From Candidatus Omnitrophota bacterium (GTDB taxonomy: Bacteria > Omnitrophota > Gorgyraeia > Duberdicusellales > 4484-171), in NCBI GenBank assembly GCA_037146775.1, contig JBAWWL010000005.1, forward strand, positions 102,241-166,240: a stretch of DNA of 64,000 nucleotides, in the 5' to 3' direction. Positions within the stretch are counted from its first letter, which is position 1. Every line of letters starts with the position of its first letter. The position numbers and the translations under genes were made by a program. Below are positions 44,022-64,000 of the stretch, piece after piece. Below the pieces are notes generated by a model. The model was not told where the DNA came from, made no database searches, and was given only the letters and a program-made list of their open reading frames with translations.

Positions 44022-44918
44022 ATGAAGAATATACTAAAGGGTTTTTTGGTCATTATTTTTGTTTTTGGGCTAGCCGCATGCGATAAGATTTTCCCTCCCA
44101 AAGATACCGGAAGCGCAGAAAAGGAAACATTAAAGATAAAGGGGCCGCTTCTGGCGCGAGTCAATGAGTGGGTGATTGGTGTCGACGATTTTAAGAATTA
44201 CTTAAACAGTCTTGAACCGTTGGCCAAAAAGACCGGGCTGGACATAAACAGTTCGGAATTTAAAACCAGATTTTTAAGTGATTTGATCAAGGCGCAAATA
44301 CTTGCGCAGATTGCGGTAGATCGCGGCCTTGACAAAGATCCGGATGTTCTCAGGGCTTTACGTGATACCCGCGATACACTTTTAGCCGCGAAAGTAAGGG
44401 ATGATTTGGAGAAGAGGACAGGCGTTTCCTATGCGCAGATACAGGCATTTTACGAGAAGAACAAGAAACTAATCACTAAACCACAGGAAATAAAAATAAG
44501 AGAGATTGCGGTAAACAGCGAAAGTCAGGGGAAAGAGATAAATATCAGAATTTTGCAGGGAGAAAGTTTTGATACGCTCGCCAGGCAATACTCAATTTTA
44601 CCTTCAAAAGATAATGGCGGCGATCGAGGTTGGGTAAGTCCTACGCCAAAGGATATTGAGAACAGCAGAAAATATTGGACCGCCTTGGCGACGCTTGATA
44701 AAGGCAACGTTTCTAATGTGTTCAAGGCAGATGACGGCAATTATTATATTGTTAAGGTGGAAGATGTGCGCGGCGGGCAGGAAGTTCCTCTCGCGGATAT
44801 CGAGAAAGATTTAGAAAAAGCTTTAAAAGCCGAACAGATAGAAACAGAGGAAAACAAGCTTATCGAGAAATTCAAAGGAAAAAACAGAATAGAGAAGAAC
44901 GAAGACTTGATAAGATAG
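44022..44918 (+). CDS. Lipoprotein peptidyl-prolyl isomerase, parvulin (PpiC/PrsA/SurA-like)
   Basis: Lipobox 'VFGLAAC'. A SurA-like N-terminal chaperone region, then a parvulin domain 'SILPSKDNGGDRGWVSP'. Confidence 0.7.
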   Translation: MKNILKGFLVIIFVFGLAACDKIFPPKDTGSAEKETLKIKGPLLARVNEWVIGVDDFKNYLNSLEPLAKKTGLDINSSEFKTRFLSDLIKAQILAQIAVDRGLDKDPDVLRALRDTRDTLLAAKVRDDLEKRTGVSYAQIQAFYEKNKKLITKPQEIKIREIAVNSESQGKEINIRILQGESFDTLARQYSILPSKDNGGDRGWVSPTPKDIENSRKYWTALATLDKGNVSNVFKADDGNYYIVKVEDVRGGQEVPLADIEKDLEKALKAEQIETEENKLIEKFKGKNRIEKNEDLIR

Positions 44919-45010: not shown

Positions 45011-45814
45011 ATGGATAAGCGAATGATAAATTTGATTATCGGCGTGTGTTTTGCGCTTATCGCGATATTTTTAATTCATCGGCAGATGATGCAGAATGAG
45101 GCGCGCATCCAAGAGCTTATTCGCCAGGGTCAAATCGTTGAAGTGGTGATAGCTAAGGATGATATTGCCAAAGAGACGACTATCACCGCCGACATGGTTA
45201 AACTTGAAAGAGTTGCTTCTAAGTCGTTGCAGCCCGGAGATCTTACTTCCCTGGATTCGGTTATAGGAAAGTTTGCGGTCGTAGATATTCTTAAGGGCCA
45301 GCACATTAATAGTGATATGGTAAAACCGCTGTTAAGCGTGCGTTTCCTTTCCGAACGAATCCCTCCCGGTATGCGCGCTATCACTATCACTGTTGATAAG
45401 CTTTCTGCTATCGAAGGCCTGATAAAACCGGAAGACAAGGTCGATATTATAGGGACATTTACGTTCCCTGGCGGCGGTTCGCCCGTCATTATCACGCTTT
45501 TGCAGGGAGTAAAAGTACTTGCCACCAATAAAAATATTTCTCCGTATCGCGCTGAAGGTAAAGCGGATACCATTACTTTGGCGTTAAAGCCGGATGATAT
45601 CAAGATGCTTGCTTATTCCATTGAGATCGGTAAAGTTAGAATGGTATTACGTACGCCGCTTGATACATCCGAGGAGTATGAATATTCTGCGCTTACCTTT
45701 GAAGGGCTTTTGAATAAAATAGGCATGATGCAGAAACCAGTACAGCAGTCTAAGCCACCGACGATAGAAGTGTATAAAGGTTCAAAACAGGAAGAAGTCC
45801 CGGTTATTAAATAA
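45011..45814 (+). CDS. cpaB: Flp pilus assembly protein CpaB/RcpC
   Basis: N-terminal TM helix, a SAF domain ('IVEVVIAKDDIAKETTITADMVKLERV'), then a beta-rich C-domain. Confidence 0.8.
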   Translation: MDKRMINLIIGVCFALIAIFLIHRQMMQNEARIQELIRQGQIVEVVIAKDDIAKETTITADMVKLERVASKSLQPGDLTSLDSVIGKFAVVDILKGQHINSDMVKPLLSVRFLSERIPPGMRAITITVDKLSAIEGLIKPEDKVDIIGTFTFPGGGSPVIITLLQGVKVLATNKNISPYRAEGKADTITLALKPDDIKMLAYSIEIGKVRMVLRTPLDTSEEYEYSALTFEGLLNKIGMMQKPVQQSKPPTIEVYKGSKQEEVPVIK

Positions 45815-45826: not shown

Positions 45827-47431
45827 TTGATGGTTAAACGGCTCGTTGCGGCAATGGGTGTTTGTTTCCTCTGTTTTAGCTGCGCCACTATTTTTTCGCA
45901 AAATATTTTGGATAAATATGACGAAGAGGTTACACTTATCGTCGGCGAAGCCTACGTTATTCCCGTTGCATCCCCTCAGCGTGTCTCTATGCGCAATCCT
46001 GACGTTTCTGATATCGGCAAAGTGAGCGATACGGAAATAGTAATAGTGGCGAAACAGGCCGGAGATACCGCCCTGACGGTATGGGATAAGGAAGGCGAAA
46101 AAGTATTTTATATTACGGTATATGCGCACGATGTAGACCGGATATTCAAGCGCCTGGAAAAACTTATCCGTAAAGATCTGAAAATACCCAATGTGGTGCT
46201 GAAAAAGAATCAAGCGAGCGGTACGGTTATTATAACCGGCGATGTTACCTCCCTCGACAAAGAGCAGATAGATAAAATATTGGAGCCGTTTAAGGAGAAG
46301 GTGGAAAATATTCTCACCGTCAAGAAAGAAACCAAGATGGTTGAGATAGAAGCGCGTATTTTAGAAATAAATAAAACCGAGCTCGATAAATTAGGTGTGC
46401 AATGGATGGAATATATTCAAATACGGCAAGAGCCTTACAAGGCTCCCTCGGCAGATCAAGGCGTTACCACAACGCTAGATCGGCGTAGTGCCTCGGCTAA
46501 TGGGTTTTGGGGTTTTGGAAAATTTTCAAAAGATGCAATCACCGCAAAAATTAATTTACTCATTACCTCGGGGAAAGGAAAAGAATTATCGCGGCCGAAA
46601 CTTTTGTGTTTAAGCGGCGAGGAGGCTAAACTTACCGTTGGCGGCGAGGTACCTTATTTAAGCAGCTCCACCGCTTCTGCGGTAGGTACCACAATCAGTA
46701 TCGCTTACAAAGAATACGGTGTGATTTTAAAAATGCGGCCGATAGTTTCTCTTGATAGCAAAAAAATATTCGCTTCTTTAAGGGCAGAAGTAAGCGCGCT
46801 TGACTGGGAAAACGGCGTAGTGGTTTCCGGCATAAAAATTCCGGCATTCGCTACCCGCGTTGCGGAAACCGTTGTAAATTTACAGTCAGGAGATACTGTT
46901 TTTATCGCAGGCCTTATTAAGAGCAAAGATTCCGAAGGCCTTCAGAAATTTCCTGCATTAGGTAACTTACCTGTTATAGGCAACCTTTTTAGATCAAAAG
47001 AATTTCAGAATAACCAGACGGAACTGGTGATTTCTCTCACGCCCAAGGTCGTGCAGCCGGACGAGAAAGAGGACCTTATGGAAACGACGGAAATTGCCGA
47101 CAAGAAAATTATGGATGTTTACAGCGGTATTATTCCCTCGCAGTTACAGGGTTATATCGTAGAGATTGAAAAAATGATTTCCGGCAACCTTTCTTACCCG
47201 GCATCGCTGATGAATACCGGTTGGGAAGGAATGGTGGTATTGCAGTTGGACATTTTTCATACCGGAGACATAAAGAATGTTAAGGTGTCCAAAACATCCG
47301 GGCACCGTATTTTTGATTCGGACGCAATAAAATTGGTAAAGAGCCTGTCTTTTCCTCCTTTCCCTCCAGATGTCGGCGTTGAGGAATTGAATATAGAAAT
47401 TCCTATAGTGTATCGAGAGAGAAATAAATAG
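45827..47431 (+). CDS. cpaC: Tad secretin CpaC/RcpA with C-terminal TonB-like (TonB_C) domain
   Basis: Secretin core '...GGEVPYLSS...PALGNLPVIGNLFRSKEFQNNQTELVISLTPKVV'. An extra C-terminal approximately 100 aa, 'YPASLMNTGWEGMVVLQLDIFHTGDIKNVKVSKTSGHRIFDSDAIKLVKSLSFPPFP', resembles TonB_C. Confidence 0.8.
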   Translation: MMVKRLVAAMGVCFLCFSCATIFSQNILDKYDEEVTLIVGEAYVIPVASPQRVSMRNPDVSDIGKVSDTEIVIVAKQAGDTALTVWDKEGEKVFYITVYAHDVDRIFKRLEKLIRKDLKIPNVVLKKNQASGTVIITGDVTSLDKEQIDKILEPFKEKVENILTVKKETKMVEIEARILEINKTELDKLGVQWMEYIQIRQEPYKAPSADQGVTTTLDRRSASANGFWGFGKFSKDAITAKINLLITSGKGKELSRPKLLCLSGEEAKLTVGGEVPYLSSSTASAVGTTISIAYKEYGVILKMRPIVSLDSKKIFASLRAEVSALDWENGVVVSGIKIPAFATRVAETVVNLQSGDTVFIAGLIKSKDSEGLQKFPALGNLPVIGNLFRSKEFQNNQTELVISLTPKVVQPDEKEDLMETTEIADKKIMDVYSGIIPSQLQGYIVEIEKMISGNLSYPASLMNTGWEGMVVLQLDIFHTGDIKNVKVSKTSGHRIFDSDAIKLVKSLSFPPFPPDVGVEELNIEIPIVYRERNK

Positions 47432-47486: not shown

Positions 47487-49652
47487 ATGGAAGCGAAAGT
47501 AATATCTTTTTTTAGTACCAAGGGAGGCGTCGGTAAAACACTTGTTTCGTTAAACGTTGCCGTTCAGCTTGCCATACAGAACAAGCGTGTTTTCCTTTTG
47601 GACCTTGATTTGGGCGCACCTCAGGCCACATCGAAATTGATCGGTGTTGACAGCAAATACTGCCTTTTTAACCTCATCGACTATCTCAAAGAATTCAAAG
47701 AGAAAAAAAGAAAAGTAGATAATTATGCGGTAACGTATCAGAATATAATGTTTTTGCCTTCCATTTTTAAAATGTCTCAAAGAACAGCTTTTACTCCCCA
47801 GGTAGTAAAAGATTTTATCTCGGTTATCTGGGACGATTTCGATTACATCATCATCGATGCGGGCAGTAATCTTACCGATAACCTTATCGCGGCACTGGAA
47901 TGCTCAAACCTTATCAGCTTGATTCTTACCCCGGATATTCTGGCGGTATATCAGACACAGTGGCTTATGGACACGTTACAGAGCTTAGGGTTTCCGCTCA
48001 CCATGATTAAGGTGGTGCTGAACCGTGCCGAAAGCAAAGGCTCTATTACCTGGCAGGAGGTAAAGGCATTGCTCCCGGCTGAGACTATAGCTCTCATCCC
48101 TTCGGAAGGCAGGGCTGCCGGCCTTGCCGTTAACCGCGGAGTGCCGCTGGTACTTGATAGCCCGCAGTGCCGGTTTACTCTCGCTATTCAAAAGCTATCC
48201 AAGGATATTGTCGAACGAAAAGACATGTATATCAGCCACAAAAGCCTTTCCGACGTGCGTCTGGCCAAAGAAAAATTTGAGGGAGGAGAAGAGGCTTTCT
48301 GGCAGCGCGTAGGAGTTATAGAACGCGAAGAGAAAGTGGCGTTGATTGAGGAAGAGGATGAAATTATCCGCTTCAAGAAACAAGTCCACGAAAGGCTTAT
48401 CGAAGAGCTTGATTTGAAACGTCTTCATATTGAAACGTACGCCACGAGTCCTCAGAAAATGAATGAGCTAAGAGCCAAAGCGGAAAAGGTGATTTCTAAT
48501 GTTATCAGCAAGGAAGCGGGTGGTTTTATTTCTGCCACCGAGGTACGCAGGCAAATTACCAAGGATATTCTGGAAGAAGCTCTTGGTTTGGGCCCACTCG
48601 AGGACCTTTTGCGTGATCCTACGATAACCGAAGTAATGGTAAACAATAAAGACCAGATCTACATTGAACGCTTTGGTAAGTTAGAGGTAACCAGCAAAAA
48701 ATTTACCACCAACGAACAAGTGAGGATTGTTGTTGAGCGTATCTTGGCGCCGCTGGGCAGACGTATTGACGAGTCGGTTCCTTACGTGGATGCCCGTCTT
48801 CCCGACGGCTCCCGTGTAAACGCAATTATTCCGCCCCTTTCTCTTACTGGCCCCACTCTGACCATAAGAAAATTTGCCAAACAGCGCTGGGGTATGGAGG
48901 ATTTGATAAACCGTTTCGGAAGCCTTACCCATGATATGGCGCTTTTTCTTGAAGCTGCGGTAAGGTCGCGTAAAAATTCGCTTGTTTCCGGAGGCACCGG
49001 TTCGGGGAAAACTACGTTTTTGAATATCTTGTCTGCCTATATTCCCGACAGTGAACGTATTATTTCTATAGAAGATGCGGCTGAATTGAAATTGCGCCAG
49101 GCTCACTGGATTCGTTTGGAATCCCGTCCGCCCAACATCGAGGGCAGAGGCGAAATTACTATCAGAGATTTATTCAGGAATACGTTGCGTATGAGACCGG
49201 ACAGGATCATCGTCGGTGAAGTGCGAGGCAGGGAAGTGTTGGACATGCTTCAGGCAATGAACACCGGCCATGACGGCAGTATGTCTACTATTCACGCCAA
49301 TTCCACACATGACGTTTTAATCAGGCTTGATAGTATGATTTTGATGAGCGGCGTAGAGTTACCGCTGCGTGCTATTAGAGAACAGGTTTCTTCGGCGATT
49401 AACTTAGTGGTTCATACCGCCCGTCTTTCCGATGGTTCGCGTAAAGTAATAGCTATCACTGAAATCATTGGCATGCTTGATGAGACGCATATTAATATGC
49501 AGGACATATTTGTGTATCGCCAGACCGGTGTAGATAAAGATGGCAATGTTCAGGGGTATTACACACCGCTTGGTTATATTCCCACTTTTTACGATGAAAT
49601 CAGGGCCAGAGGTATTGATTTATCCAGGGAAATATTCGTTCCTAAGGATTAA
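47487..49652 (+). CDS. Fusion of TadZ/CpaE-like ParA/MinD ATPase domain and TadA/CpaF secretion ATPase
   Basis: The N-terminal '[22 protein letters not shown]' is a deviant Walker A within a MinD-like domain (approximately 260 aa). The C-terminal approximately 400 aa is CpaF-like ('[13 protein letters not shown]', '[12 protein letters not shown]', His box '[12 protein letters not shown]'). Confidence 0.8.
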
Positions 49653-49670
49653 CTTGTTGTTTGTCTTATT

Positions 49671-50744
49671 ATGGCACACGGTATAGAAAAGATCCAAAAA
49701 CTGCTGCAAGACCCGAAGATTACCGAAATAATGATTAACGGGTCGCGGGATACCTTCATTGAAATGGGAGGGTTAAAGAATCGCCTCCCAGATTGTATTT
49801 TCACCGAGGAAGACATCAAAGAGATAATTGACGAGTATTTTAATAAAGTAGGTAAACCCGTCAACTACTACAATCCTTTCGGCGACGTATGCATCGAAGA
49901 TGGTTCGCGTTTTAATATTATTACCTACCCGCTTGCCCGCTGCGGCACCTCATTAACTGTTAGAAAATTTAACCGTGAGCTCCACAGCCTGGATGATTTG
50001 ATAAAAGAAGGGACTCTCACCCGCAGGATGGCCGATTTTTTAATCGCTTGCATCCATGGCAGAATCAATGTTTTATTTTCCGGCGCTACCGGAAGCGGTA
50101 AAACCACGACCATGGAAATGCTTTCTTACCATATTCCCGAACAGGAACGTATTGTTACCATTGAAGACACCGCGGAACTTCAGCTGCATCATCCCAATTT
50201 AGTACCCATGGAAACACGTTCTCCCGACCAGGATGGAAAAGGAGAAGTGACTTTGCGCGATCTGATACGTAACGCTTTACGTATGAGGCCGGACAGGATT
50301 ATCGTCGGTGAGGTGCGAGGTCCTGAGGCGTTGGATATGATTCAGGCAATGTCTACGGGCCATCGCGGAACGCTTGGAGTCATTCACGGTAACTCTCCGC
50401 AAGAAATAACCAGCCGTCTTGAAACGCTCATTCTTTCTTCCGGTATACGCTTGCCGCAGGAAGAGATACGCAGGATGATCGGTAACACCCTTAATGTGAT
50501 TATTCAGCAGGAGCGGTTTCCTGACGGAGTAAGGCGTATTACTCATATTTCAGAGGCGCGTGGGGTTGAACGCGGAGAAGTAGCGTTGCAGGATTTATTT
50601 ATCTTTCGCCGTGAAGGTAAAACCCCTGACGGTAAAATCAAAGGTAAATTTAAGACCGTCATGAGAATGTATCCCCGCTTTTTTGCCGATTTCCAAAGGT
50701 TAAAACTGATGGATGAAACGATATTCGGCGAAGATTCTAATTAA
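49671..50744 (+). CDS. Second TadA/CpaF-type secretion ATPase (short form)
   Basis: '[14 protein letters not shown]', '[12 protein letters not shown]', '[12 protein letters not shown]'. It lacks the long N-terminal extension. Confidence 0.85.
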
Positions 50745-50821: not shown

Positions 50822-52273
50822 GTGACGGCTGCAAAGTGCGGGTTAGAAAAAAATATGCGCGCAAAAATCGACGCTCGTTTAAAAAATCTAGTAGTACGTC
50901 TGGCAAAAAGCAATAAAGGTTTGGGGGTGCGTTTATTGGCCAAACTTATCAAAGAGAAACACGGGATTGCTCTTTCTAAAAGCGCCGTACAGAATATTTT
51001 TAAGCAAGGGCATATAAAGCAATCAAGGGGGAGGAAAACTTATCTTTCGCGCTATCAACGCAAAGATATTGTTCCCTGCGGATTTTTGCTGCTTAAAGCC
51101 ATAGATTCTCAAGTCGGGCTCTTTGATTTACTTACGGACCAACTACGAATGTATTTTGCGCGCATGCAGCCGGCATTATTGAAAAAAATCATTATGCTGG
51201 TTACTTTTTCTTCCTATCAAGGCCTCACCACCAAAGTGTCCGCACGGGAACCCGGTTTCTTACGTATCACAGATCTACGCTCTTACCCTGCCAGAAAAGT
51301 TAAGTTTTTTCTCTCGCGCATCGCCGACTACAAGCCCTTAGTGACTGTTGAAAAAATAAAGCCTCTGCTTGAGCCTGTTTCGACAGTAAAATTCTACTTT
51401 GGTAATAACACCGTAGGTTATACCGACGCTAATTTTTCTACTATTTGGGACAGCCCTTGCCGTATTAGCCATTTTTTTCAACCCTATTATTATGTGCTTT
51501 CGAGGCTTTCGGCTATGCTTCGAGACCAGACACTCATTCTTTATTATACGCAAAGTTTTAATTATCTTTCGCCTTTAGTGGTAAGTTTTATCGATGGTTT
51601 AGCTACGGGCATTACCAAGGTAGAATTGCTTGGCCCCAGTGGTGCAGTTATACACCAAGAAAACCATGCTATCCCTAAGCTTTCTTTCTTGATCGGCTAT
51701 TATCCCAAGATAATCGCAAAAGGAATGACCTTTTTAGAGAAAGAGCAGCATTTTAAAAAAGTGGAGGGCTTTTGGCAAGATTTGTCTTACGCGTATATTC
51801 TTACCCGATTTTCGCAGCCCAAAGGGAACAAAGGAATCATCACAAACAGTATTCTGGTAAAAACCATAAAGAAATCTCTTCCTTCCTGGGCTGTGCTTAC
51901 CGATAAAAGGACTAATATCGCCGCACTACTGAAACGTTATTTGTTACTCTGGCCGTATCGGGAAAAGACGTTTCTTGAAGATATGAAAATTATCGAGCGC
52001 TCTTACGTTTTTGAGGAAAGTAAGAAAGATACTCAGTTGCCTGCCCTCACAAGCCTCACCCTAGAGAAAGAATCGGATTTTCTCCATATTGCCGAACTAT
52101 TAGCCGCTCTTTTTAGCGCGCGTGTAGCCCAAGCAAAGTTTAAAGAATTGTCGGGCGAATATGTAACAGGTAAGGAATCCTGCCGGTTGGTTATCACCAG
52201 CCCCCCGGCGTTTAAGGAAAAATTTAACATGAATTGTTTCTTTCTTGGTGGTAAACGCGTTATTTTGCTCTAA
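50822..52273 (+). CDS. Hypothetical soluble protein embedded in the Tad locus (N-terminal HTH-like segment)
   Basis: 483 aa with no TM helices and no recognised domain. The N-terminal 'LGVRLLAKLIKEKHGIALSKSAVQNIF' looks HTH-like. A start at ATG 50855 is also possible. Confidence 0.4.
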   Translation: MTAAKCGLEKNMRAKIDARLKNLVVRLAKSNKGLGVRLLAKLIKEKHGIALSKSAVQNIFKQGHIKQSRGRKTYLSRYQRKDIVPCGFLLLKAIDSQVGLFDLLTDQLRMYFARMQPALLKKIIMLVTFSSYQGLTTKVSAREPGFLRITDLRSYPARKVKFFLSRIADYKPLVTVEKIKPLLEPVSTVKFYFGNNTVGYTDANFSTIWDSPCRISHFFQPYYYVLSRLSAMLRDQTLILYYTQSFNYLSPLVVSFIDGLATGITKVELLGPSGAVIHQENHAIPKLSFLIGYYPKIIAKGMTFLEKEQHFKKVEGFWQDLSYAYILTRFSQPKGNKGIITNSILVKTIKKSLPSWAVLTDKRTNIAALLKRYLLLWPYREKTFLEDMKIIERSYVFEESKKDTQLPALTSLTLEKESDFLHIAELLAALFSARVAQAKFKELSGEYVTGKESCRLVITSPPAFKEKFNMNCFFLGGKRVILL

Positions 52274-52854: not shown

Positions 52855-53160
52855 ATGAAAACAAAAAAGATATCGGCGCAGTCAGTCATTGAATATATTT
52901 GCGTAACCATGGTGTTTGCTGCCGTGGGTATAGGAACTTTTGTTGCGGCAAACCATGCGGCAGTAGCGAATCTGCGCGGTCATGGCACCAACTATCAGTC
53001 TCAGACTAACCTTATGGGTCAAACCACCTATGCCGGTATCGACAAAGAACAATACAACTGGCCTTCTACTTGGGATCAGGCATATCCGGGAACAAGCAGC
53101 AAGCAGGTTCGCCAATTTGTGGATAATCCGGAACAAACTTCAGGACAAGGAGGAGAGTAA
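52855..53160 (+). CDS. Flp/Fap-family type IVb prepilin-like protein 1
   Basis: 'MKTKKISA|QSVIEYICVTMVFAAVGIG' has a class III signal-peptide motif (A|QSxxEY) plus a hydrophobic helix. Confidence 0.7.
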   Translation: MKTKKISAQSVIEYICVTMVFAAVGIGTFVAANHAAVANLRGHGTNYQSQTNLMGQTTYAGIDKEQYNWPSTWDQAYPGTSSKQVRQFVDNPEQTSGQGGE

Positions 53161-53339
53161 TGTTAGCCCATATCAGAAAATCAAAGGCGCAGAGTATTCT
53201 TGAATACGTGTCGTTAACGCTTATTGTATGGGGAGCGTTGTCGGCAATGACATTTTATATTCAGCGGGCGATGGAAGTAAGGACCCGGCATCTTAACCAG
53301 GAATTAAACGAGAATGCCAGAGGAAATGGGATGATTTAA
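53160..53339 (+). CDS. Flp-like prepilin 2 (59 aa, below ORF-track cutoff)
   Basis: ATG overlaps the previous stop (taATG). 'MLAHIRKSKA|QSILEYVSLTLIVWGAL'. Confidence 0.6.
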   Translation: MLAHIRKSKAQSILEYVSLTLIVWGALSAMTFYIQRAMEVRTRHLNQELNENARGNGMI

Positions 53340-53353
53340 AAGGAGCGAGAAAC

Positions 53354-53800
53354 ATGAAGCAACATAACCATAAAATCATGGCTCGAGGGCAAAGCATAAC
53401 AGAGTATTTGATCGTGTTAGCAGCTATTATCGGCGCTATTGTGGCCAGCACTATCGGCATACGTTATGGGGTAAACAGAGGTATGAAGACCGTTAATGAA
53501 AAATTTGAAAAAGGCATTGCTACCAGCAGCGTTCCGGGAAAGCAAAAGGCATATTTACAAACGGAAGAGTCTTACGATGATTCAAGACAGCATAAAACTG
53601 ACCCGGCATGGGAAAACACCGATCAGCCAGGAGGCCCTCAGTATACTGGTGGCTATGAATATGAGGAGTGGGTGCGTAATAATCCCGACAGCGCTTACAA
53701 TGCGCCGGAAGATGGGAAAACATTATATGATACCGGCGTTAAACCGTATCCGGCAAAAAATTATTGGGTAGGCAATGTCAGGGGGCAGAAAGGTAAGTAG
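53354..53800 (+). CDS. Flp-like prepilin 3 with extended C-terminal domain
   Basis: 'MARG|QSITEYLIVLAAIIGAIVA'. 148 aa. Confidence 0.7.
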   Translation: MKQHNHKIMARGQSITEYLIVLAAIIGAIVASTIGIRYGVNRGMKTVNEKFEKGIATSSVPGKQKAYLQTEESYDDSRQHKTDPAWENTDQPGGPQYTGGYEYEEWVRNNPDSAYNAPEDGKTLYDTGVKPYPAKNYWVGNVRGQKGK

Positions 53801-53808
53801 GCGTTTTT

Positions 53809-53973
53809 ATGTATAGAAAAACAAAAGCACAGAGTTTTATCGATTATGCAGCGTTAATTGCGATTATTGTGGTATCGCTGCTAGCCATGTCCGGCTATGT
53901 TATGCGGTCAATTAACGCGAGGGTTGCCCACATGTGGGCGGATTTATATCATCCACAAAACGGAGTAAGGTAG
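53809..53973 (+). CDS. Flp-like prepilin 4 (54 aa, below ORF-track cutoff)
   Basis: 'MYRKTKA|QSFIDYAALIAIIVVSLLAM', identified by manual translation. Confidence 0.6.
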   Translation: MYRKTKAQSFIDYAALIAIIVVSLLAMSGYVMRSINARVAHMWADLYHPQNGVR

Positions 53974-53989
53974 GAGGAGGTGAGTTGTA

Positions 53990-54172
53990 ATGGTTAAGAA
54001 GGCGCAGAGTATTCTCGAGTACGTCATCGTTCTTTCAGCTATCGTAGCAGCAGTTATCGCAATGGCAAGAGGTCCGGTAACGCAGGCGGTAAACAAAATG
54101 TTTACTGATTCATCTAACGTGATCCAGGAGAAGTCGGGCATTTTTTATCAGCAGTCAGCCGGTGGTAAGTAA
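53990..54172 (+). CDS. Flp-like prepilin 5
   Basis: 'MVKKA|QSILEYVIVLSAIVAAVIA'. Confidence 0.7.
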   Translation: MVKKAQSILEYVIVLSAIVAAVIAMARGPVTQAVNKMFTDSSNVIQEKSGIFYQQSAGGK

Positions 54173-54201
54173 GGGGTATTATTCTTGAAGGAGGTGTGAA
54201 A

Positions 54202-54516
54202 ATGTTAACCAGACGTAAAAAGGGACAATCAGTAGCGGAATACGCGATCTTAATTTCTCTTTGCGTTGCCGCATTTATGGGGATACAGAACGAAGTACGC
54301 AGAGCTATTCAGGCTCGCGTTCACGACGCGGCAGTAGAACTAACGCAAGGCGGCACATGGCAATATGAGCCTTCTGCAGGCGTTAAGACGACCACGAACC
54401 AGAAGTCAGAGCGTATTAAAGATGAAAACTGGATTGATAAGGGTGACGTGGATTCAGTGTATCAGAAAGTTGCAGATACCAACAGCGCTGATTACAAATC
54501 CGACGAAACGAAATAA
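54202..54516 (+). CDS. Flp-like prepilin 6
   Basis: 'MLTRRKKG|QSVAEYAILISLCVAAF'. RBS 'gaaggagg' is 7 nt upstream of ATG 54202. Confidence 0.7.
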   Translation: MLTRRKKGQSVAEYAILISLCVAAFMGIQNEVRRAIQARVHDAAVELTQGGTWQYEPSAGVKTTTNQKSERIKDENWIDKGDVDSVYQKVADTNSADYKSDETK

Positions 54517-54567
54517 GGACGCTTATTATTTTATTTTATTACGCACATAACTTAAGGAGGTGCGAAC

Positions 54568-54921
54568 GTGTTAACCAGATGTAGAAAAGCACAAAGTACT
54601 CTTGAATATGCCCTTCTCATCGGAGTGGTGGTAGGAGTGCTGTTGACCATGCAGAACTACTTAAAAAGAAGTATGCAGGGTAAATTACAGGCTACCGCTG
54701 ATGAAATGGGCGAACACTATTCTCCTGGCGATACGAAACGTCACGAACGTCTCTATTCGTCAATCGACAGCGTGACTGAAACGTCGATTTATGGAAAAGC
54801 ATCCGATACTTCCGGTGAAGTCGGAAGAACCCGCACCGTTATTAAGGGCGGAAAACAAGAGCAGGCGGCCACCAGAGAAAACCGCGGTCTTGACAGAGAA
54901 AGATGGGAGCACAAGAAATAA
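54568..54921 (+). CDS. Flp-like prepilin 7 (GTG start)
   Basis: 'MLTRCRKA|QSTLEYALLIGVVVGVLL'. RBS 'aaggagg' precedes it. Confidence 0.65.
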   Translation: MLTRCRKAQSTLEYALLIGVVVGVLLTMQNYLKRSMQGKLQATADEMGEHYSPGDTKRHERLYSSIDSVTETSIYGKASDTSGEVGRTRTVIKGGKQEQAATRENRGLDRERWEHKK

Positions 54922-55001
54922 ATTCCGCCGGGCTTACGCATCGTTGGTGTCAAGTATGGGCAGGGGTGTAAAGTAGTTGTAGTAAACTGAAAGGATGAAT
55001 A

Positions 55002-55328
55002 ATGTTAATGAAACGTAAAGCAGTGACTGTATTGCAGTACAGTTTCCTTATCGCAGTAACGGTGGGAGTATTGCTTACCATGCAAAATTACATAAAACGC
55101 AGTATGCAAGGGCAATTGCAGACTTATAGCGATTCCATGGGTGAGCAATACTCCCGGGGACTGACGAATATACACGACCATTATTCATCCACAGCGAAAA
55201 CCACAGAATGGAAGCTACCCACATTCAATATACGCGGTAATGGCGGCGACTGTACGCATACTCAGGGAACATATACGGCCACCTCGGAACGAGAGCTTTT
55301 ACCTCTTGATGCGGAGCGCTGGAATTAA
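55002..55328 (+). CDS. Flp-like prepilin 8 (variant motif)
   Basis: 'MLMKRKA|VTVLQYSFLIAVTVGVLL', with Q in place of the E+5 residue. Its paralogy to prepilin 7 is evident ('LTMQNYIKRSMQG'). Confidence 0.6.
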   Translation: MLMKRKAVTVLQYSFLIAVTVGVLLTMQNYIKRSMQGQLQTYSDSMGEQYSRGLTNIHDHYSSTAKTTEWKLPTFNIRGNGGDCTHTQGTYTATSERELLPLDAERWN

Positions 55329-55357
55329 CAAACCGTTTTAAGAGCAGCTATAAAAAC

Positions 55358-56035
55358 ATGAATGTAACCAATAAAAGAACAGATTGTTACCGATACGGTT
55401 ATAAAAAGGCACAGTCTTTTCTGATGTACGCCTGTTTAATTGGCATAGTTATCGGAGTACTGTTGACCATGCAGCGTTATATCGGCAGAAGCATGCAAGG
55501 GCTTCTGAAGCAGAATCTAGATAATATGGGCGGTGAAAAAGTGTCCGGTAAACAATATAGTCCTGGACGCTGGTTTGGTTCAAAGAGTTTAGTGCGGGTT
55601 AATACCAGTGGTTTTGACTACGAAGGCAGACATGGTTTTGGTGTGAATATTGCGAACAGCCAGCGTAGCGAATCCGTCCGTATCACCGATACAATTAACC
55701 CCGGAGACCTTCCCCCGGTAAATTTAGATACTAAAAGCGTGCTTGACGGAGAGGATAAGCGGTTGATCCAAGATACGTATGGTTCTGATTTTGATCCGGG
55801 TATAAATAAAGTGGAAAATAATGTGAATGGTGGCGTCCGTGACTGGGAGTATGTGTCGGAGAAAGCGCCGGATAGTGTTGGCGCCAATGCCGACGAGAAT
55901 TTCGATCAGAGAACAAAAAACACCTTTGGCGAACATATTCCTGAGTCCTCTACCGCGGGCGCGGTGGGCGAAAGCAAGGGGCCTAACTACGAAGGAGAAG
56001 CCGGAACCAATTTACCAGAAAATAAGGCACAATGA
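55358..56035 (+). CDS. Flp-like prepilin 9 with large C-terminal domain (225 aa)
   Basis: 'YKKA|QSFLMYACLIGIVIGVLLTMQRYIGRSMQG'. Confidence 0.6.
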   Translation: MNVTNKRTDCYRYGYKKAQSFLMYACLIGIVIGVLLTMQRYIGRSMQGLLKQNLDNMGGEKVSGKQYSPGRWFGSKSLVRVNTSGFDYEGRHGFGVNIANSQRSESVRITDTINPGDLPPVNLDTKSVLDGEDKRLIQDTYGSDFDPGINKVENNVNGGVRDWEYVSEKAPDSVGANADENFDQRTKNTFGEHIPESSTAGAVGESKGPNYEGEAGTNLPENKAQ

Positions 56036-56427
56036 GAAAAGCAAACGCTATTATTGAATATACATTTATTATTGCTATAGTAATTAGTGCTCTTGCGGGC
56101 ATGAATGCGTATTTAAAACGCGTAGTGCAGGCGCACATTAAAAGAGAAACCGATGAGCACTTATATATGCCTTCATCTTTCTTATGGCAAAGTTCAGTTA
56201 CTTTTCGCAGGCAAGAAACCGAGCATGACCGCCGTGAATATGCTCACGGCGATACAGTGGTCAATGTAACCAGTCGCAGTCCGTCGGTGAGTTTGCATGC
56301 GCCTTCTCCGCCCGGGGTTCCGGTGGCGGGTATACATGCGCAGGATGCAGCGTCAGCGCCTCCTGGCCAGAGTAACCCAAGTAATCCGACGAGCGATGAG
56401 CAAACCGAAGTGCCAGCGGCAGATTAA
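56032..56427 (+). CDS. Flp-like prepilin 10
   Basis: 'MRKA|NAIIEYTFIIAIVISALAG'. Start overlaps the previous stop (ATGA). Confidence 0.65.
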   Translation: MRKANAIIEYTFIIAIVISALAGMNAYLKRVVQAHIKRETDEHLYMPSSFLWQSSVTFRRQETEHDRREYAHGDTVVNVTSRSPSVSLHAPSPPGVPVAGIHAQDAASAPPGQSNPSNPTSDEQTEVPAAD

Positions 56428-57032
56428 TGTATTTTATGAAGACCATGAAAAAATTATTTAGCAAAAAAGCCCAGGCAATGGTAGAGTTGGCAATCCTGGG
56501 GCCCCTGCTTTTAATGGCGGTTGGCCTGGTGGTTACCTATGTAGCCAAGATGAATAATGACCAGTGGGTATTGATGGAGGCATTTCGCCGGGCACTCGCC
56601 CATTCTCATGACGAAAACAAAAATGTTGGCTACGGCACCTATGATGACCGCAGAATGGCTTCAGTGCAGGAGCCGATTCTCGGCCAAAAAACTCCTTCAA
56701 GCGGCTCTGCTTGTGTGGTGTGGTCAATTCCCTCGGTAGACGGAGATGGCCAGGACCCTCAAAGTACCACTATTGTAAAAGTAAACGGTGGCATCTGGGC
56801 GATTCCTGGTTATAATGAATATGATCTTGGGCCAGGCGCCGGCGGCGGCGTAGAACCCCTTTATTTAACTGCCAAAGGTTCGAATCTTACTGTTAAAACC
56901 GAAGACGGGGTGACTACCTCAACCCGTTCTGGCGGAGTGGGCGAGTTCATGTTATATAAAATCAATAAAAAGAATCATCCGCAGGGCCGTGGTAGCGGAG
57001 ATTCACGTACCTTTACCGGCCATGCTGACTAG
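56427..57032 (+). CDS. TadE-like pseudopilin
   Basis: 'KKAQAMVELAILGPLLLMAVGLVV' resembles the TadE N-terminal motif (G/A-x-VEFALV-P). Alternative starts at 56436 and 56445. Confidence 0.6.
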   Translation: MYFMKTMKKLFSKKAQAMVELAILGPLLLMAVGLVVTYVAKMNNDQWVLMEAFRRALAHSHDENKNVGYGTYDDRRMASVQEPILGQKTPSSGSACVVWSIPSVDGDGQDPQSTTIVKVNGGIWAIPGYNEYDLGPGAGGGVEPLYLTAKGSNLTVKTEDGVTTSTRSGGVGEFMLYKINKKNHPQGRGSGDSRTFTGHAD

Positions 57033-57081
57033 CGGGTAATATAAACTGTTGTTGTTTTATGGAGACTTAAGGAGGAGACGG

Positions 57082-57342
57082 ATGCGAACGAGAAAAGCCC
57101 AAAGCATATTAGAATCAGTGCTTGCCTATGTTGCCGGAACCGCGCTTTTAGGTGCGGCTATGGGTATTTTTGCCTGGGGCATAGCACATATTCCGATTAG
57201 ACAGGTTACTTATGAGGCAACGCGCATTATTGCCGGAACTCCGCGTTGTCGTATGGTGGATAAAGACGGCGCAAAAAAAACAGGTATCGGCAGTATGCCG
57301 GTTTGGCCGACTTATTTTGTCGGCGGCGGAGTTACGCCATAA
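57082..57342 (+). CDS. Flp-like prepilin 11 (variant)
   Basis: 'MRTRKA|QSILESVLAYVAGTALLGAAMGIFA'. RBS 'aaggagga' precedes ATG 57082. Confidence 0.55.
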   Translation: MRTRKAQSILESVLAYVAGTALLGAAMGIFAWGIAHIPIRQVTYEATRIIAGTPRCRMVDKDGAKKTGIGSMPVWPTYFVGGGVTP

Positions 57343-63633: not shown

Positions 63634-64000
63634 TTTGGCTTGCTTCGTTATTATTGGTTGCTGGTTTTGTGATTTTTTTTATCGGTTTATATCCGCGGCC
63701 GTCAGAGACGATCTCTATTTTCGGCAAAAATATAAAAGAATCGGAATCCCTATTTTCTTTTTTCTTAAGCCCCTTTGCGCCTCTCAATGAAGGCCTTTTG
63801 AAAATTTTCCGAGTAGACAAAGCGCTTAAAGATAAATTATATTTGGCACGTTGGAGGACTACCGCGGCTGAATTTCTCGCCGCTAAGGAATTACTTGCAA
63901 TTTTTTTACCGCTCATTCTCTTCCTTTTCGGGGTCAATAATGTCTGGTTCTTGCTGGCTGCCGGCGCTTTCGGTTTCGTATTTCCTGAGTTACTCATCAA
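63630..64000 (+). CDS. tadC: Tad pilus platform protein TadC (partial, runs off window end)
   Basis: ATG overlaps the tadB stop (ATGA). 'MIWLASLLLVAGFVIFFIGLYPRP...LYLARWRTTAAEFLAAKELLAIFLPLILFLF' is a TM plus T2SSF-like helical domain. No stop before position 64000. The ORF track shows only the antisense frame. Confidence 0.6.
   Translation, partial: MIWLASLLLVAGFVIFFIGLYPRPSETISIFGKNIKESESLFSFFLSPFAPLNEGLLKIFRVDKALKDKLYLARWRTTAAEFLAAKELLAIFLPLILFLFGVNNVWFLLAAGAFGFVFPELLI

What the first reader, a model, noticed from the sequence alone, without database searches (positions are those of the whole stretch)
47487..50744. TadZ(CpaE)-TadA(CpaF) fusion ATPase followed by a second stand-alone TadA
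The first 260 aa of the 721-aa protein are a MinD/ParA-type ATPase. The deviant Walker A is 'KGGVGKT', with no receiver domain. The rest is a complete CpaF/TadA hexameric ATPase with Walker A, Asp box and His box. A second, shorter CpaF paralog follows immediately. Fusing the localisation ATPase to the motor ATPase, plus a duplicate motor, is a non-canonical Tad arrangement. It may indicate distinct extension and retraction motors or two substrate classes.
Basis: partly seen in the sequence, partly recalled or inferred. Interest (0 to 1): 0.6.

Follow-up and report, generated by a model that had tools for sequence, protein, structure and literature searches.

The report
TadZ–TadA fusion pilus motor, Omnitrophota
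This is a genuine, widely conserved gene in which the positioning ATPase (TadZ) and the motor ATPase (TadA) of a Tad adhesion pilus are fused, followed by a second, stripped-down motor paralog; the fusion was already described in the predator Bdellovibrio, so it is a new member of a known kind rather than a new system.

Summary
ORF 47487-49652 (721 aa) is a ParA/MinD-type ATPase (aa 1-250, Walker A KGGVGKT, no receiver domain), joined by a ~40-aa disordered linker to a complete CpaF/TadA motor (three-helix bundle, N-terminal domain, ATPase domain). ORF 49671-50744 (357 aa) is a second CpaF-like ATPase.

The fusion is not an assembly artefact. More than 110 protein clusters of ~720 aa from independent assemblies share the architecture, and 17 species-level Omnitrophota genomes keep cpaB-secretin-tadZA-tadA2 in order.

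It is not new as a kind. It aligns end to end with Bdellovibrionota proteins in rcpC-secretin-tadZA-tadB loci. A 2026 preprint describes the "atypical TadZA fusion ATPase" of Bdellovibrio bacteriovorus, which also has extra tadA paralogs.

The second ATPase is more unusual:
- It lacks the three-helix bundle that a 2025 study called part of the minimal CpaF architecture.
- It keeps every catalytic motif.
- It forms a deep sister clade to canonical CpaF plus the TadZA cores, so it is not a recent duplicate.

The locus has one secretin and one TadB/TadC pair, so both ATPases probably serve one machine. The extension/retraction idea is untested. Interest is modest.

The parts
44022..44918 (+). SurA/PrsA-like peptidyl-prolyl isomerase, first gene of the conserved module
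   Evidence: Pfam Rotamase_2/3. The same position is kept in L001, L002, L085 and L086.
45011..45814 (+). CpaB/RcpC
   Evidence: TIGR03177 pilus_cpaB at 149 bits; Pfam RcpC and SAF.
45827..47431 (+). Secretin (CpaC/RcpA type) with a C-terminal TonB_C domain (aa 454-530)
   Evidence: Pfam T2SS-T3SS_pil_N, Secretin (2.8e-40) and TonB_C (3.2e-14). The TonB_C fusion is also present in L001, L002, L085, L086 and L087, and absent in the Bdellovibrionota loci L003 and L004.
47487..49652 (+). tadZA: the whole fusion ORF (721 aa plus stop)
   Evidence: A 100%-identical protein, P0001, is in an NCBI Omnitrophota MAG, and more than 110 clusters share the same length and architecture.
47487..48236 (+). 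TadZ-like ParA/MinD ATPase domain (aa 1-250). Deviant Walker A KGGVGKT at aa 12-18.
   Evidence: Pfam AAA_31, ParA and CbiA. K12/G13/G14/G16/K17/T18, D39/D41 and D124 are invariant or at least 90% conserved. AF2 pLDDT is about 85. The best structural matches are 3ea0 (TM 0.9), then archaeal MinD and FleN.
48243..48362 (+). Flexible linker (aa 253-292) with a short conserved helix, F-[WL]-x-x-[IVM]-G, at aa 269-274
   Evidence: AF2 pLDDT is below 50 for residues 253-292, with a helix at 269-274. The motif is conserved only within the Omnitrophota clade.
48363..48584 (+). Three-helix bundle of the CpaF/TadA part (aa 293-366)
   Evidence: AF2 helices at 290-308, 316-343 and 351-366. The 'LK.rvH.rL.eelDlk' helix 1 is conserved in all fusions. 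Foldseek aligns 428 columns to the 424-residue CpaF construct.
48585..49649 (+). CpaF/TadA N-terminal domain plus catalytic ATPase domain (aa 367-721)
   Evidence: phmmer against C. crescentus CpaF (8rkd, 9e24) gives 368 bits over CpaF residues 147-492. All four motifs are invariant in 60 homologs.
49671..50744 (+). tadA2: a stand-alone CpaF-like ATPase that lacks the IDR and the three-helix bundle
   Evidence: It aligns to CpaF residues 150-482. The family has 117 proteins (mode 353 aa) with catalytic motifs at least 98% conserved. It is a deep sister clade to CpaF plus the TadZA cores. It lies directly downstream of tadZA in 17 loci.
50855..52273 (+). Conserved 472-aa HTH protein with a Tn5/IS4-transposase-like fold, between tadA2 and the pilin array
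   Evidence: Weak HTH_32 and ISNCY hits. There are 25 clusters; every source name given is Omnitrophota/Omnitrophica, and most carry no name. It is syntenic in 12 loci. AF2 pLDDT is 86, and the best PDB match is Tn5 transposase at E 2e-4 with TM only 0.19.
52855..57342 (+). Array of 12 small Flp/class-III-type pilin and pseudopilin genes (leader ...K[AG]QS-x-x-EY), including a TadE-like gene at 56427-57032
   Evidence: Translations. Faint Class_IIIsignal and TadE Pfam hits. A 13th pilin-like ORF lies at 60278-60451.
57640..59331 (+). TadG-like protein
   Evidence: Pfam Tad (PF13400) at 4.3e-8.
62788..63633 (+). TadB-like platform protein (T2SSF)
   Evidence: Pfam T2SSF at 2.1e-18.
63630..64000 (+). 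Start of the TadC-like second platform gene (T2SSF, 288 aa). It runs off the window.
   Evidence: Gene call on the source contig CAZTHQ010000014.1, locus L088 10843-11709.

Best explanation
The 721-aa protein is a TadZA-type fusion ATPase. It is the main motor of a Tad (type IVc) pilus locus in a Candidatus Omnitrophota genome.

Its C-terminal two thirds are a complete CpaF/TadA: a three-helix bundle, an N-terminal domain and a catalytic domain. This part should form the hexamer that docks under the single TadB/TadC platform and drives pilin insertion or extraction by a rotary ATP cycle.

Its N-terminal third is the TadZ/CpaE-equivalent ParA/MinD ATPase. It lacks the receiver-like domain but has a fully canonical deviant Walker A and switch aspartates. 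It hangs on a ~40-residue flexible tether.

Inferred: the six tethered ParA/MinD domains dimerise when ATP is bound. They couple the motor to the place where the secretin and platform assemble, through a membrane or landmark contact, so that positioning and motor activity are delivered at 1:1 stoichiometry in one polypeptide. In Bdellovibrio, TadZ plus the linker binds the polarity hub RomR.

The gene that follows (tadA2) encodes a catalytically intact, deep-branching CpaF paralog without the three-helix bundle. It is translated from the same operon. Most likely it is a second hexameric ATPase that works on the same machine. Whether it specialises in retraction, in a subset of the ~13 pilins, or in regulation is not shown.
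For: Domains and motifs.

The fusion is real and under selection:
- More than 110 clusters at 90% identity, ~720 aa, 58-100% identical, from NCBI, JGI, ENA and Logan assemblies.
- Mean column identity is 70-73% over the full length, including the N-domain catalytic residues.

Homology to the known TadZA:
- End-to-end alignments to representatives whose cluster members are named Bacteriovoracia and Bdellovibrionales.
- Those loci read Flp-TadV-(minor pilin-like ORFs)-RcpC-secretin-TadZA-TadB.
- The Bdellovibrio TadZA is described as a ParA/MinD-like TadZ, a flexible linker and TadA. It is essential and binds RomR through TadZ plus the linker.

Context:
- cpaB, secretin, about 13 Flp-type pilins, TadE/TadG-like genes and TadB+TadC all lie in the same locus.
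- There is only one secretin and one TadB/TadC pair in the locus.

TadA2:
- Motifs are at least 98% conserved in 117 homologs, and none has an N-terminal extension.
- It is adjacent to tadZA with a 1-164 nt gap in 17 species-level genomes.
- In a rooted NJ tree it is a separate clade (60/60). The rest of CpaF plus the TadZA cores forms its sister (50/60), with similar root-to-tip lengths.
Against: - Nothing here shows expression, hexamer formation, dimerisation of the N-domains or localisation.
- The N-domain matches MinD and FleN, and above all the uncharacterised 3ea0, better than the one solved bona fide TadZ. 3fkq scores E 5e-12 at rank 29 by profile and is not in the Foldseek top 50.
- The N-domain lacks TadZ's receiver-like domain, so 'TadZ' rests on operon position and on homology to the Bdellovibrionota fusion.
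- Omnitrophota cells are ultra-small cocci by report (source), so 'polar' positioning may not apply.
- TadA2 is absent next to tadZA in deeper Omnitrophota lineages (L002, L085-L087).
- TadA2 occurs as an orphan among housekeeping genes in L019, L020 and L023, so it may not be an obligate part of the machine.
- In B. bacteriovorus the extra rcpA2-tadA2 module is dispensable for predation under the tested conditions.
- The AF2 model of the catalytic domain has a low-confidence stretch at residues 525-601.
Confidence: 0.75

Rival explanations
1. The fusion is an artefact. A sequencing or assembly error merged separate tadZ and tadA genes.
For: None was found. Only a few shorter hits (P0061, P0063, P0250, P0335) look like unfused halves. 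Several of them sit on short contigs, which is compatible with truncation at contig ends.
Against: - More than 110 independent clusters of ~720 aa from four data sources, down to 58% identity.
- The ORF is continuous across the junction in 60 aligned homologs.
- The same single ORF is present in several further assemblies, some on contigs of 0.35-1.8 Mb: L001, L002 and L085-L087.
- Fusions of the same architecture occur in Bdellovibrionota, and one is studied experimentally as a single protein.
Confidence: 0.01
2. The N-terminal domain is not a TadZ/CpaE ortholog. It is a MinD/FlhG/FleN-type ATPase that fused independently to TadA, with a different role, for example a membrane-binding switch or a regulator of motor number.
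For: - Best sequence matches are archaeal MinD (1g3q, E 1e-14), with NCBIfam minD_arch and minD_bact at 84-87 bits.
- It has the canonical KGGVGKT with both lysines, rather than the atypical TadZ box.
- It has no receiver-like domain.
- The solved TadZ 3fkq ranks only 29th by profile and is absent from the structural top 50.
- The linker carries an F-[WL]-x-[KR]-[IVM]-G helix that recalls the MinD membrane-targeting helix (the resemblance is from my own knowledge of MinD).
Against: - It occupies exactly the tadZ slot, between the secretin and tadA.
- The whole protein aligns end to end with Bdellovibrionota TadZA.
- Distant members of the same fusion family do carry atypical Walker A boxes such as KSGSGTT, KGGVGQT and KGGTGAS, which fit the TadZ consensus K/RGGXGXS/T.
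- TadZ is itself a ParA/MinD/FleN-subfamily protein, so the distinction is partly semantic.
- No minC or minE neighbours are present.
Confidence: 0.15
3. TadA2 is a dedicated retraction motor, or one motor of a pair with opposite polarity. On this view the Omnitrophota Tad system has convergently evolved a PilB/PilT-like two-motor division of labour in place of the single bifunctional CpaF.
For: - There are two catalytically intact ATPases but only one secretin and one TadB/TadC pair in the locus.
- TadA2 has the minimal N-terminal-domain-plus-ATPase build and a size of about 353 aa, typical of PilT-type retraction ATPases (my own knowledge).
- It lacks the three-helix bundle that is predicted to contact the N-terminal helices of the platform proteins.
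- Like pilT, it can sit as an orphan away from the pilus genes.
- It is tightly coupled to tadZA, with a median gap of about 5 nt.
Against: - There are no functional data.
- CpaF alone does both jobs in Caulobacter.
- Deleting the three-helix bundle abolished CpaF expression and FlaI function, so a form without it might not engage the platform at all.
- TadA2 is missing next to tadZA in several Omnitrophota lineages.
- The extra rcpA2-tadA2 module of Bdellovibrio is dispensable and expressed differently.
Confidence: 0.2
4. TadA2 is functionally unrelated to this pilus, or only loosely related. It could power another process or act as a regulator, and its adjacency to tadZA would be a lineage-specific operon accident.
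For: - Orthologs at about 60% identity are orphans among housekeeping genes: L019 (labelled Lentisphaeria), L023 (Kiritimatiellota) and L020 (labelled Planctomycetia).
- In assembly CAZWJT01, TadZA (L085) and TadA2 (L020) are on different contigs.
- The family branches outside canonical CpaF.
Against: - Adjacency with a 1-164 nt gap is conserved in 17 species-level genomes, across TadA2 identities of 67-81%.
- No second platform, secretin or substrate set is nearby.
- Its closest solved relative is still CpaF at 287 bits, against 134 bits for archaeal GspE-like/FlaI and 105 bits for VirB11.
Confidence: 0.2

Closest known systems
TadZA fusion ATPase of Bdellovibrio bacteriovorus tad locus 1 (bioRxiv 10.64898/2026.07.08.737194)
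   Same: [quoted passage not shown]
- The gene sits directly after rcpC and the secretin.
- Additional tadA paralogs are present in the genome.
- The host is a predicted or proven predator or parasite.
- Relatives labelled Bdellovibrionales or Bacteriovoracia align end to end with the window protein at 39-41% identity.
   Different: - N-domain identity to the Bdellovibrionota proteins is only about 22-25%.
- The Omnitrophota linker has its own conserved F-[WL]-x-x-[IVM]-G helix.
- Here tadA2 follows tadZA directly, whereas tadB follows it in the Bdellovibrionota loci.
- The Omnitrophota secretin carries a TonB_C domain, and the locus has a PPIase and about 13 pilins.
- Whether a RomR-like partner exists is unknown.
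Canonical TadZ/CpaE plus TadA/CpaF (Aggregatibacter actinomycetemcomitans, Caulobacter crescentus)
   Same: The same two activities in the same gene order (secretin, tadZ, tadA). The TadA part is 368 bits to C. crescentus CpaF with all catalytic motifs and the 3HB-NTD-CAD architecture.
   Different: - One polypeptide here, instead of two.
- The N-domain lacks the receiver-like domain seen in the solved TadZ 3fkq, deposited as an 'NtrC-like two-domain protein' of 373 aa whose ATPase part starts near residue 142.
- It keeps a canonical deviant Walker A.
- The CpaF IDR is replaced by the tether to TadZ.
PilB/PilT two-motor type IVa pili
   Same: Two PilT/VirB11-superfamily ATPases for one machine. 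The second one (TadA2) has a minimal build of about 350 aa and can be encoded as an orphan gene.
   Different: TadA2 belongs to the CpaF/FlaI branch, not the PilT branch: 287 bits to CpaF against 49-50 bits to PilT. No evidence of retraction function exists. This is an analogy only.
Archaellum FlaI-FlaH, and the proposed CpaE ring around CpaF
   Same: A second P-loop protein associated with the motor hexamer. Denise et al. place TadZ/FlaH in the same operon slot. The Caulobacter cryo-ET study speculates that CpaE contributes to an outer cytoplasmic ring that depends on CpaF. A natural TadZ-TadA fusion is consistent with such a stoichiometric association.
   Different: FlaH is a RecA/KaiC-like protein, not ParA/MinD (my own knowledge). 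No structural data exist for a TadZ ring.
PDB 3ea0, ParA-family ATPase from Chlorobium tepidum
   Same: It is the best match of the N-domain by profile (E 3.7e-46) and by fold (TM 0.89-0.91, rmsd 2.0-2.3 Å). It is also a single-domain protein of 245 aa without a receiver domain.
   Different: It is a stand-alone protein whose function is not stated in the entry. I recall it being treated as a TadZ homolog in the TadZ structure paper, but I could not verify this here.

Membership tests
CpaF/TadA motor ATPase (C-terminal part of the 721-aa protein) | PilT/VirB11-type ATPase core with Walker A, Asp box, Walker B and His box | tested here: met
   T2SSE at 7.5e-64. The motifs are readable and invariant in 60 homologs.
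CpaF/TadA motor ATPase (C-terminal part of the 721-aa protein) | Minimal architecture of three-helix bundle, NTD and CAD (Yen et al. 2025, PMC12019362) | tested here: met
   AF2 shows three helices at residues 290-366, followed by the NTD and CAD. Foldseek aligns 428 columns to CpaF 8rjf at E 2e-33.
CpaF/TadA motor ATPase (C-terminal part of the 721-aa protein) | Closest solved relative is CpaF, and the gene lies in a tad locus (secretin, CpaB, TadB/C, Flp pilins) | tested here: met
   368-380 bits to CpaF against about 140 bits to FlaI. Locus content.
CpaF/TadA motor ATPase (357-aa TadA2) | Catalytic motifs and the arginine finger | tested here: met
   Walker A, Asp box, LRMRPDR plus Walker B, and His box are at least 98% conserved in 117 homologs. 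The equivalent of CpaF R347 is present.
CpaF/TadA motor ATPase (357-aa TadA2) | Three-helix bundle as part of the minimal CpaF architecture | tested here: not met
   It aligns to CpaF from residue 150 onward. Only 16 residues precede the first NTD strand, and the family median is also 16. The 18-nt intergenic gap leaves no room for a longer N-terminus.
CpaF/TadA motor ATPase (357-aa TadA2) | Falls inside the canonical CpaF clade | tested here: not met
   In a rooted NJ tree it is a separate clade (60/60), sister to all sampled CpaF and TadZA cores (50/60). It is 43-45% identical to all of them, whereas the sampled stand-alone CpaFs and other fusions are about 51-65% identical to the window's TadA core. 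Caveats: NJ only, 250 columns, limited sampling.
TadZ/CpaE localisation ATPase (N-terminal 250 aa) | ParA/MinD-superfamily fold with Walker A-like K/RGGXGXS/T | tested here: met
   Pfam AAA_31, ParA and CbiA. KGGVGKT fits the consensus quoted. TM is 0.8-0.9 to ParA/MinD/FleN structures.
TadZ/CpaE localisation ATPase (N-terminal 250 aa) | N-terminal receiver-like (ARD) domain, as in the solved E. rectale TadZ | tested here: not met
   The Walker A starts at residue 12 and no upstream domain exists. In 3fkq the ATPase part starts at about residue 142.
TadZ/CpaE localisation ATPase (N-terminal 250 aa) | Encoded between the secretin gene and tadA in a tad locus | tested here: met
   The gene order cpaB-secretin-[TadZ domain-TadA] is seen in the window and in more than 20 loci.
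TadZ/CpaE localisation ATPase (N-terminal 250 aa) | Closer to bona fide TadZ than to MinD, FleN or other ParA-type proteins | tested here: inconclusive
   The profile hits 3fkq at 5e-12, but MinD at 1e-31 to 1e-34 and 3ea0 at 4e-46. No TadZ-specific HMM was available in the libraries searched.
TadZ/CpaE localisation ATPase (N-terminal 250 aa) | Localises to the assembly site and recruits Tad components | not testable with these tools
   Requires microscopy or genetics.
TadZA fusion family (Bdellovibrio type) | Single polypeptide: TadZ domain, linker, TadA | tested here: met
TadZA fusion family (Bdellovibrio type) | Full-length homology and shared synteny with Bdellovibrionota TadZA | tested here: met
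   P0259 (whose cluster member P0393 is named Bacteriovoracia) and P0275 (Bdellovibrionales) align over residues 3-719 and 6-719. Their loci carry RcpC-secretin-TadZA. I did not retrieve the B. bacteriovorus HD100 protein itself.
TadZA fusion family (Bdellovibrio type) | Interaction with the polarity hub RomR through TadZ plus the linker | not tested
   The linker sequence is not conserved between the two phyla. I did not search for a RomR homolog.
MinD proper (cell-division site selection) | Stand-alone protein with a C-terminal membrane-targeting helix, encoded with minC/minE | tested here: not met
   It is fused to TadA, no min genes are in the window, and the NCBIfam MinD scores of 84-87 bits are far below the cut-offs of 202-213 bits.

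The most novel reading that the evidence does not exclude
The Omnitrophota Tad machine is a two-motor system. The tethered TadZA hexamer and the three-helix-bundle-less TadA2 hexamer would alternate on a single TadB/TadC platform, one extending and the other retracting the pilus (or each handling a different set of the ~13 pilins). That would make TadA2 a previously unrecognised, deep-branching class of CpaF-like ATPase that breaks the 'single bifunctional motor' rule of Tad pili.
Probability: 0.15. Interest if true: 0.65.

Novelty: new member of a known kind. Interest (0 to 1): 0.3.

Why it matters
A natural TadZ-TadA fusion that is conserved across two phyla of proven or suspected predators is 'Rosetta-stone' evidence that the positioning ATPase and the motor act together physically and at 1:1 stoichiometry. 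This bears on the open question of what forms the outer cytoplasmic ring of Tad machines.

For Omnitrophota, which are uncultivated and ultra-small, it defines the conserved core module of the Tad apparatus thought to mediate host attachment: PPIase, CpaB, TonB_C-secretin, TadZA and TadA2.

The TadA2 family is a concrete candidate for a second Tad motor, and it shows that CpaF-like ATPases exist below the proposed minimal architecture.

None of this overturns current models. The fusion itself is already in the literature.

Tried and rejected
1. **Frameshift or assembly artefact at 48240-48500.** Rejected on conservation.

2. **Programmed stop-codon readthrough giving a TadZ-TadA-TadA2 chain.**
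   - Considered because tadZA and tadA2 are in the same frame in the window and in L001, and because tandem double and triple CpaF chains exist.
   - Rejected because only 7 of 17 loci are in frame, with gaps of 1-164 nt.

3. **TadA2 as a recent tandem duplicate of the fused TadA.**
   - Rejected because identity is 42%, it forms a separate deep clade, and root-to-tip lengths are similar.

4. **TadA2 as a degenerate or inactive paralog.** Rejected because the motifs are at least 98% conserved.

5. **The 472-aa neighbour as a TadZ-like or PilM-like assembly factor.**
   - Not supported. It has a Tn5-transposase-like fold with a weak match.

6. **A pilin-shuffling or inversion system driven by that transposase-like protein.**
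   - No supporting inverted repeats were found in 50700-61000. The repeats there only reflect pilin paralogy.

7. **Looking for the TadZ papers (PMC3272108, PMC3305808) and for '3EA0' in the literature.** None is held in the library.

8. **Searching the rest of the window for a prepilin peptidase or a second platform or secretin.**
   - None was found. Positions 1-43900 are housekeeping genes.
   - No A24 peptidase appears up to the contig end.

9. **A first bootstrap script timed out**. It was rerun with a faster distance routine.

Full report
**1. What is in the sequence**

The window is a stretch of a Candidatus Omnitrophota MAG. The 721-aa protein is 100% identical to NCBI protein P0001, and the source is contig CAZTHQ010000014.1 of GCA_964613555.1. 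Two adjacent + strand ORFs match the finding: 47487-49652 (721 aa) and 49671-50744 (357 aa), separated by 18 nt.

For the 721-aa protein:
- Pfam places AAA_31, ParA and CbiA on residues 4-195 and T2SSE on residues 366-662 (E 7.5e-64).
- NCBIfam gives the TadA-type model TIGR03819 (340 bits) and the MinD models (84-87 bits, far below their cut-offs).
- The deviant Walker A 'KGGVGKT' sits at residues 12-18, so there is no room for a receiver domain.

The 357-aa protein is T2SSE/TIGR03819-positive. It is 42% identical to the fused TadA part.

**2. The fusion is not an artefact**

- A search of 5.8 billion proteins returned more than 110 clusters (at 90% identity) of 718-733 aa with the same domain pair. 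They are 58-100% identical and come from NCBI, JGI, ENA and Logan assemblies. Nearly all named ones are Omnitrophota.
- Alignments of 12 and of 60 of them are continuous through the junction. Mean column identity is 70-73%.
- In the N-domain, G13/G14/G16 and D124 are invariant and K12, K17, T18, D39 and D41 are at least 90% conserved. The four TadA motifs are invariant.
- Single uninterrupted ORFs are present in several further assemblies, some on contigs of 0.35-1.8 Mb (L001, L002, L085-L087).

**3. Anatomy of the fusion**

An AlphaFold2 model built with 60 homologs (mean pLDDT 72.8) shows these parts:

| Residues | Feature |
|---|---|
| 1-250 | Well-folded ParA/MinD domain (pLDDT about 85) |
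| 253-292 | Disordered linker (pLDDT below 50) with one short helix at 269-274 |
| 290-308, 316-343, 351-366 | Three helices, the CpaF three-helix bundle (3HB) |
| about 371-476 | CpaF N-terminal domain (NTD) |
| about 482-720 | Catalytic ATPase domain (CAD) |

Other points:
- Residues 525-601 of the catalytic domain are modelled with low confidence.
- Foldseek against the PDB gives CpaF as best match for the C-terminal part (8rjf, E 2e-33, 428 aligned columns).
- For the N-domain, Foldseek gives the Chlorobium tepidum 'ParA family ATPase' 3ea0 (TM 0.89-0.91), followed by archaeal MinD, FleN and FlhG.
- The short linker helix carries an F-[WL]-x-x-[IVM]-G motif. It is conserved only in the Omnitrophota clade. 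It resembles the MinD membrane-targeting helix, but that comparison rests on my own knowledge and is a low-confidence inference.

**4. It is a member of a known fusion family**

- An exhaustive HMMER search of 1.84 billion 50%-identity representatives found many end-to-end matches (query 3-719 against target about 3-720) at 38-49% identity.
- By BLAST, at least 46 of the 149 other listed representatives have the N-domain-plus-TadA arrangement.
- Cluster look-up names two of them as Bacteriovoracia and Bdellovibrionales.
- Their loci read Flp-TadV-(small unannotated ORFs, presumably minor pilins)-RcpC-secretin-fusion-TadB.
- A July 2026 preprint (10.64898/2026.07.08.737194) describes exactly this 'atypical TadZA fusion ATPase' in Bdellovibrio bacteriovorus:
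  - It is a ParA/MinD-like TadZ with Walker A-like K/RGGXGXS/T, a flexible linker and TadA.
  - It is essential.
  - It binds the polarity hub RomR through TadZ plus the linker.
  - It localises dynamically.
  - The genome has further tadA paralogs. The rcpA2-tadA2 module is dispensable; tadA3 is isolated.
  - The preprint cites an earlier paper for the fusion.
- Seymour et al. 2023 already reported Tad systems in Omnitrophota, with TadB/TadC grouping with Bdellovibrionales. They did not mention the fusion.
- I found no paper that describes the fusion in Omnitrophota.

**5. Is the N-domain 'TadZ'?**

In favour:
- It occupies the tadZ slot.
- The whole protein is homologous to the Bdellovibrionota TadZA.
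- Distant members of the fusion family carry atypical Walker A boxes of the TadZ type, such as KSGSGTT, KGGVGQT and KGGTGAS.

Against, or open:
- There is no receiver-like domain.
- The Walker A is canonical.
- A profile of 17 N-domains hits MinD and FleN (1e-27 to 1e-34) and 3ea0 (4e-46) far better than the solved E. rectale TadZ 3fkq (5e-12, rank 29).

I therefore call it TadZ-equivalent by position and by family, with orthology to classical TadZ untested.

**6. The second ATPase**

- TadA2 aligns to C. crescentus CpaF residues 150-482. It therefore lacks the IDR (residues 1-79) and the 3HB.
- Yen et al. 2025 describe 3HB+NTD+CAD as the minimal CpaF architecture. They found that deleting the 3HB abolishes the protein.
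- TadA2 is nevertheless a conserved family:
  - 117 proteins have a modal length of 353 aa.
  - A median of 16 residues precedes the first NTD strand.
  - Walker A, Asp box, arginine finger plus Walker B, and His box are at least 98% conserved.
- It is 43-45% identical to every CpaF or TadZA core sampled. By contrast, the sampled stand-alone CpaFs and other fusions are about 51-65% identical to the window's TadA core.
- In an NJ tree rooted with FlaI and the archaeal GspE-like ATPase:
  - TadA2 is monophyletic (60/60 bootstraps).
  - All other CpaF and TadZA cores form its sister clade (50/60).
  - Root-to-tip lengths are similar (0.93 against 0.86).
- So TadA2 is an old paralog, not a duplicate of the fused copy. 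Caveats: NJ only, 250 columns, and sampling biased toward relatives of the query.

**7. Synteny**

- In 17 species-representative genomes (16 titled Candidatus Omnitrophota; L017 and L025 titled 'uncultured Planctomycetia'), tadA2 follows tadZA with a gap of 1-164 nt (median about 5). The block cpaB-secretin-tadZA-tadA2 is conserved wherever the contig reaches that far upstream.
- The two genes are in the same frame in only 7 of 17 loci, so readthrough is not a feature.
- In deeper lineages (TadZA 58-61% identical) the PPIase-CpaB-secretin-TadZA module persists without an adjacent tadA2 (L002, L085, L086). L087 keeps secretin-TadZA, with no PPIase or CpaB called upstream.
- In one assembly the two genes lie on different contigs (L085 and L020).
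- TadA2-like genes at about 60% identity are orphans among housekeeping genes in MAGs labelled Lentisphaeria, Kiritimatiellota and Planctomycetia.

**8. The locus as a whole**

Gene order:
1. PPIase.
2. CpaB.
3. Secretin with a TonB_C tail.
4. TadZA.
5. TadA2.
6. A conserved 472-aa HTH protein.
7. Twelve small Flp/class-III-type pilin genes with K[AG]QS-x-x-EY leaders, including a TadE-like gene.
8. A TadG-like gene.
9. Two or three lipoproteins, with one more pilin-like ORF among them.
10. TadB, then TadC, which runs past the window end.

Further points:
- There is one secretin and one platform pair for two ATPases.
- No A24 prepilin peptidase is found up to the contig end.
- Everything upstream of 43.9 kb is housekeeping.

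**9. Mechanism**

Shown:
- Domain composition.
- Catalytic-site conservation in all three ATPase modules.
- The flexible tether.
- The single-machine context.
- Homology to the experimentally studied TadZA.

Inferred:
- The TadA part forms the platform-engaging hexamer.
- The tethered ParA/MinD domains dimerise with ATP and link the motor to the assembly site.
- TadA2 forms a second hexamer that uses the same platform. Its direction or substrate is unknown.
- The retraction-motor reading is attractive by analogy with PilT, but it has no direct support.

**10. Verdict**

- The finding is real and correctly described at the domain level.
- The fusion is a new (Omnitrophota) member of a kind already described in Bdellovibrio.
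- The more unusual element is the 3HB-less, deep-branching TadA2 family.
- Interest is modest (0.3). It would rise to about 0.65 if TadA2 proved to be a dedicated second motor.

Noticed in passing
window 45827-47431 (aa 454-530 of the secretin); also L001, L002, L085, L086, L087: The Tad secretin carries a C-terminal TonB_C domain. The fusion is conserved in the Omnitrophota loci examined and absent from the Bdellovibrionota loci L003 and L004. It might anchor the secretin to peptidoglycan or stand in for a pilotin.
   Followed up: partly
window 50855-52273: A 472-aa protein with an N-terminal HTH and a weak Tn5/IS4-transposase-like fold (pLDDT 86; Foldseek E 2e-4, but TM only 0.19). It is conserved in synteny between tadA2 and the pilin array in 12 related loci. 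D84, D191 and E381 are invariant. It could be a domesticated transposase or a regulator. No inversion-type repeats were found nearby.
   Followed up: partly
window 52855-57342 and 60278-60451: An unusually large array of about 13 small Flp/class-III-type pilin genes with leader motif K[AG]QS-x-x-EY. Several are recent paralogs (direct repeats D1-D3).
   Followed up: partly
proteins P0013, P0014, P0018, P0241 (three domains); P0243-P0245, P0247 (two domains): Single chains that carry two or three tandem CpaF-like ATPase modules and no ParA/MinD domain. Two or three such chains would make a hexamer. Their organisms are unknown, and none is in the window.
   Followed up: partly
window 48270-48330 (aa 262-281 of TadZA): A conserved short helix, F-[WL]-x-[KR]-[IVM]-G, in the otherwise disordered linker. 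It is specific to the Omnitrophota clade and recalls the MinD membrane-targeting helix.
   Followed up: partly
window 40999-43869; L001, L086; L004 16464-18739: A pair of CNNM/CBS/CorC genes (plus a PIN_5 gene in Omnitrophota) lies next to the tad module in the window, L001 and L086. A CNNM pair also lies near TadZA in a Bacteriovoracia MAG. This may be coincidence or old synteny.
   Followed up: no
L002 1436-5860, L085 814-4446, L087 2530-6109: In the deeper Omnitrophota lineages the tad core module is preceded by a divergent operon of FIST, a histidine kinase and a response-regulator-GGDEF protein. This suggests c-di-GMP control of the pilus there. The operon is absent from the window.
   Followed up: no
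window 57427-57586: An AT-rich intergenic region upstream of the TadG-like gene. It holds a 24-nt inverted repeat (88% complementary, arms 111 nt apart) built from TTTAGAG-like units.
   Followed up: no
L001 about 12870-12990 (CP070807.1): In this 1.82-Mb CP-accession assembly (a single contig), the tadA2 ortholog is interrupted by a run of N. The assembly has a gap exactly there, so downstream synteny in that record is unreliable.
   Followed up: partly
window 44022-64000 and L088 to the contig end: No A24 prepilin peptidase (TadV) is encoded in or next to the locus. The Bdellovibrio study also notes the apparent absence of a canonical TadV in its tad loci. The Bdellovibrionota MAG loci L003 and L004 do have one.
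   Followed up: partly
window 59347-60237, 60399-61295, 61307-61804: Three paralogous predicted lipoproteins or exported proteins (weak AF_1845-like Pfam hits on the source contig) sit between the TadG-like gene and tadB. Their function is unknown.
   Followed up: no
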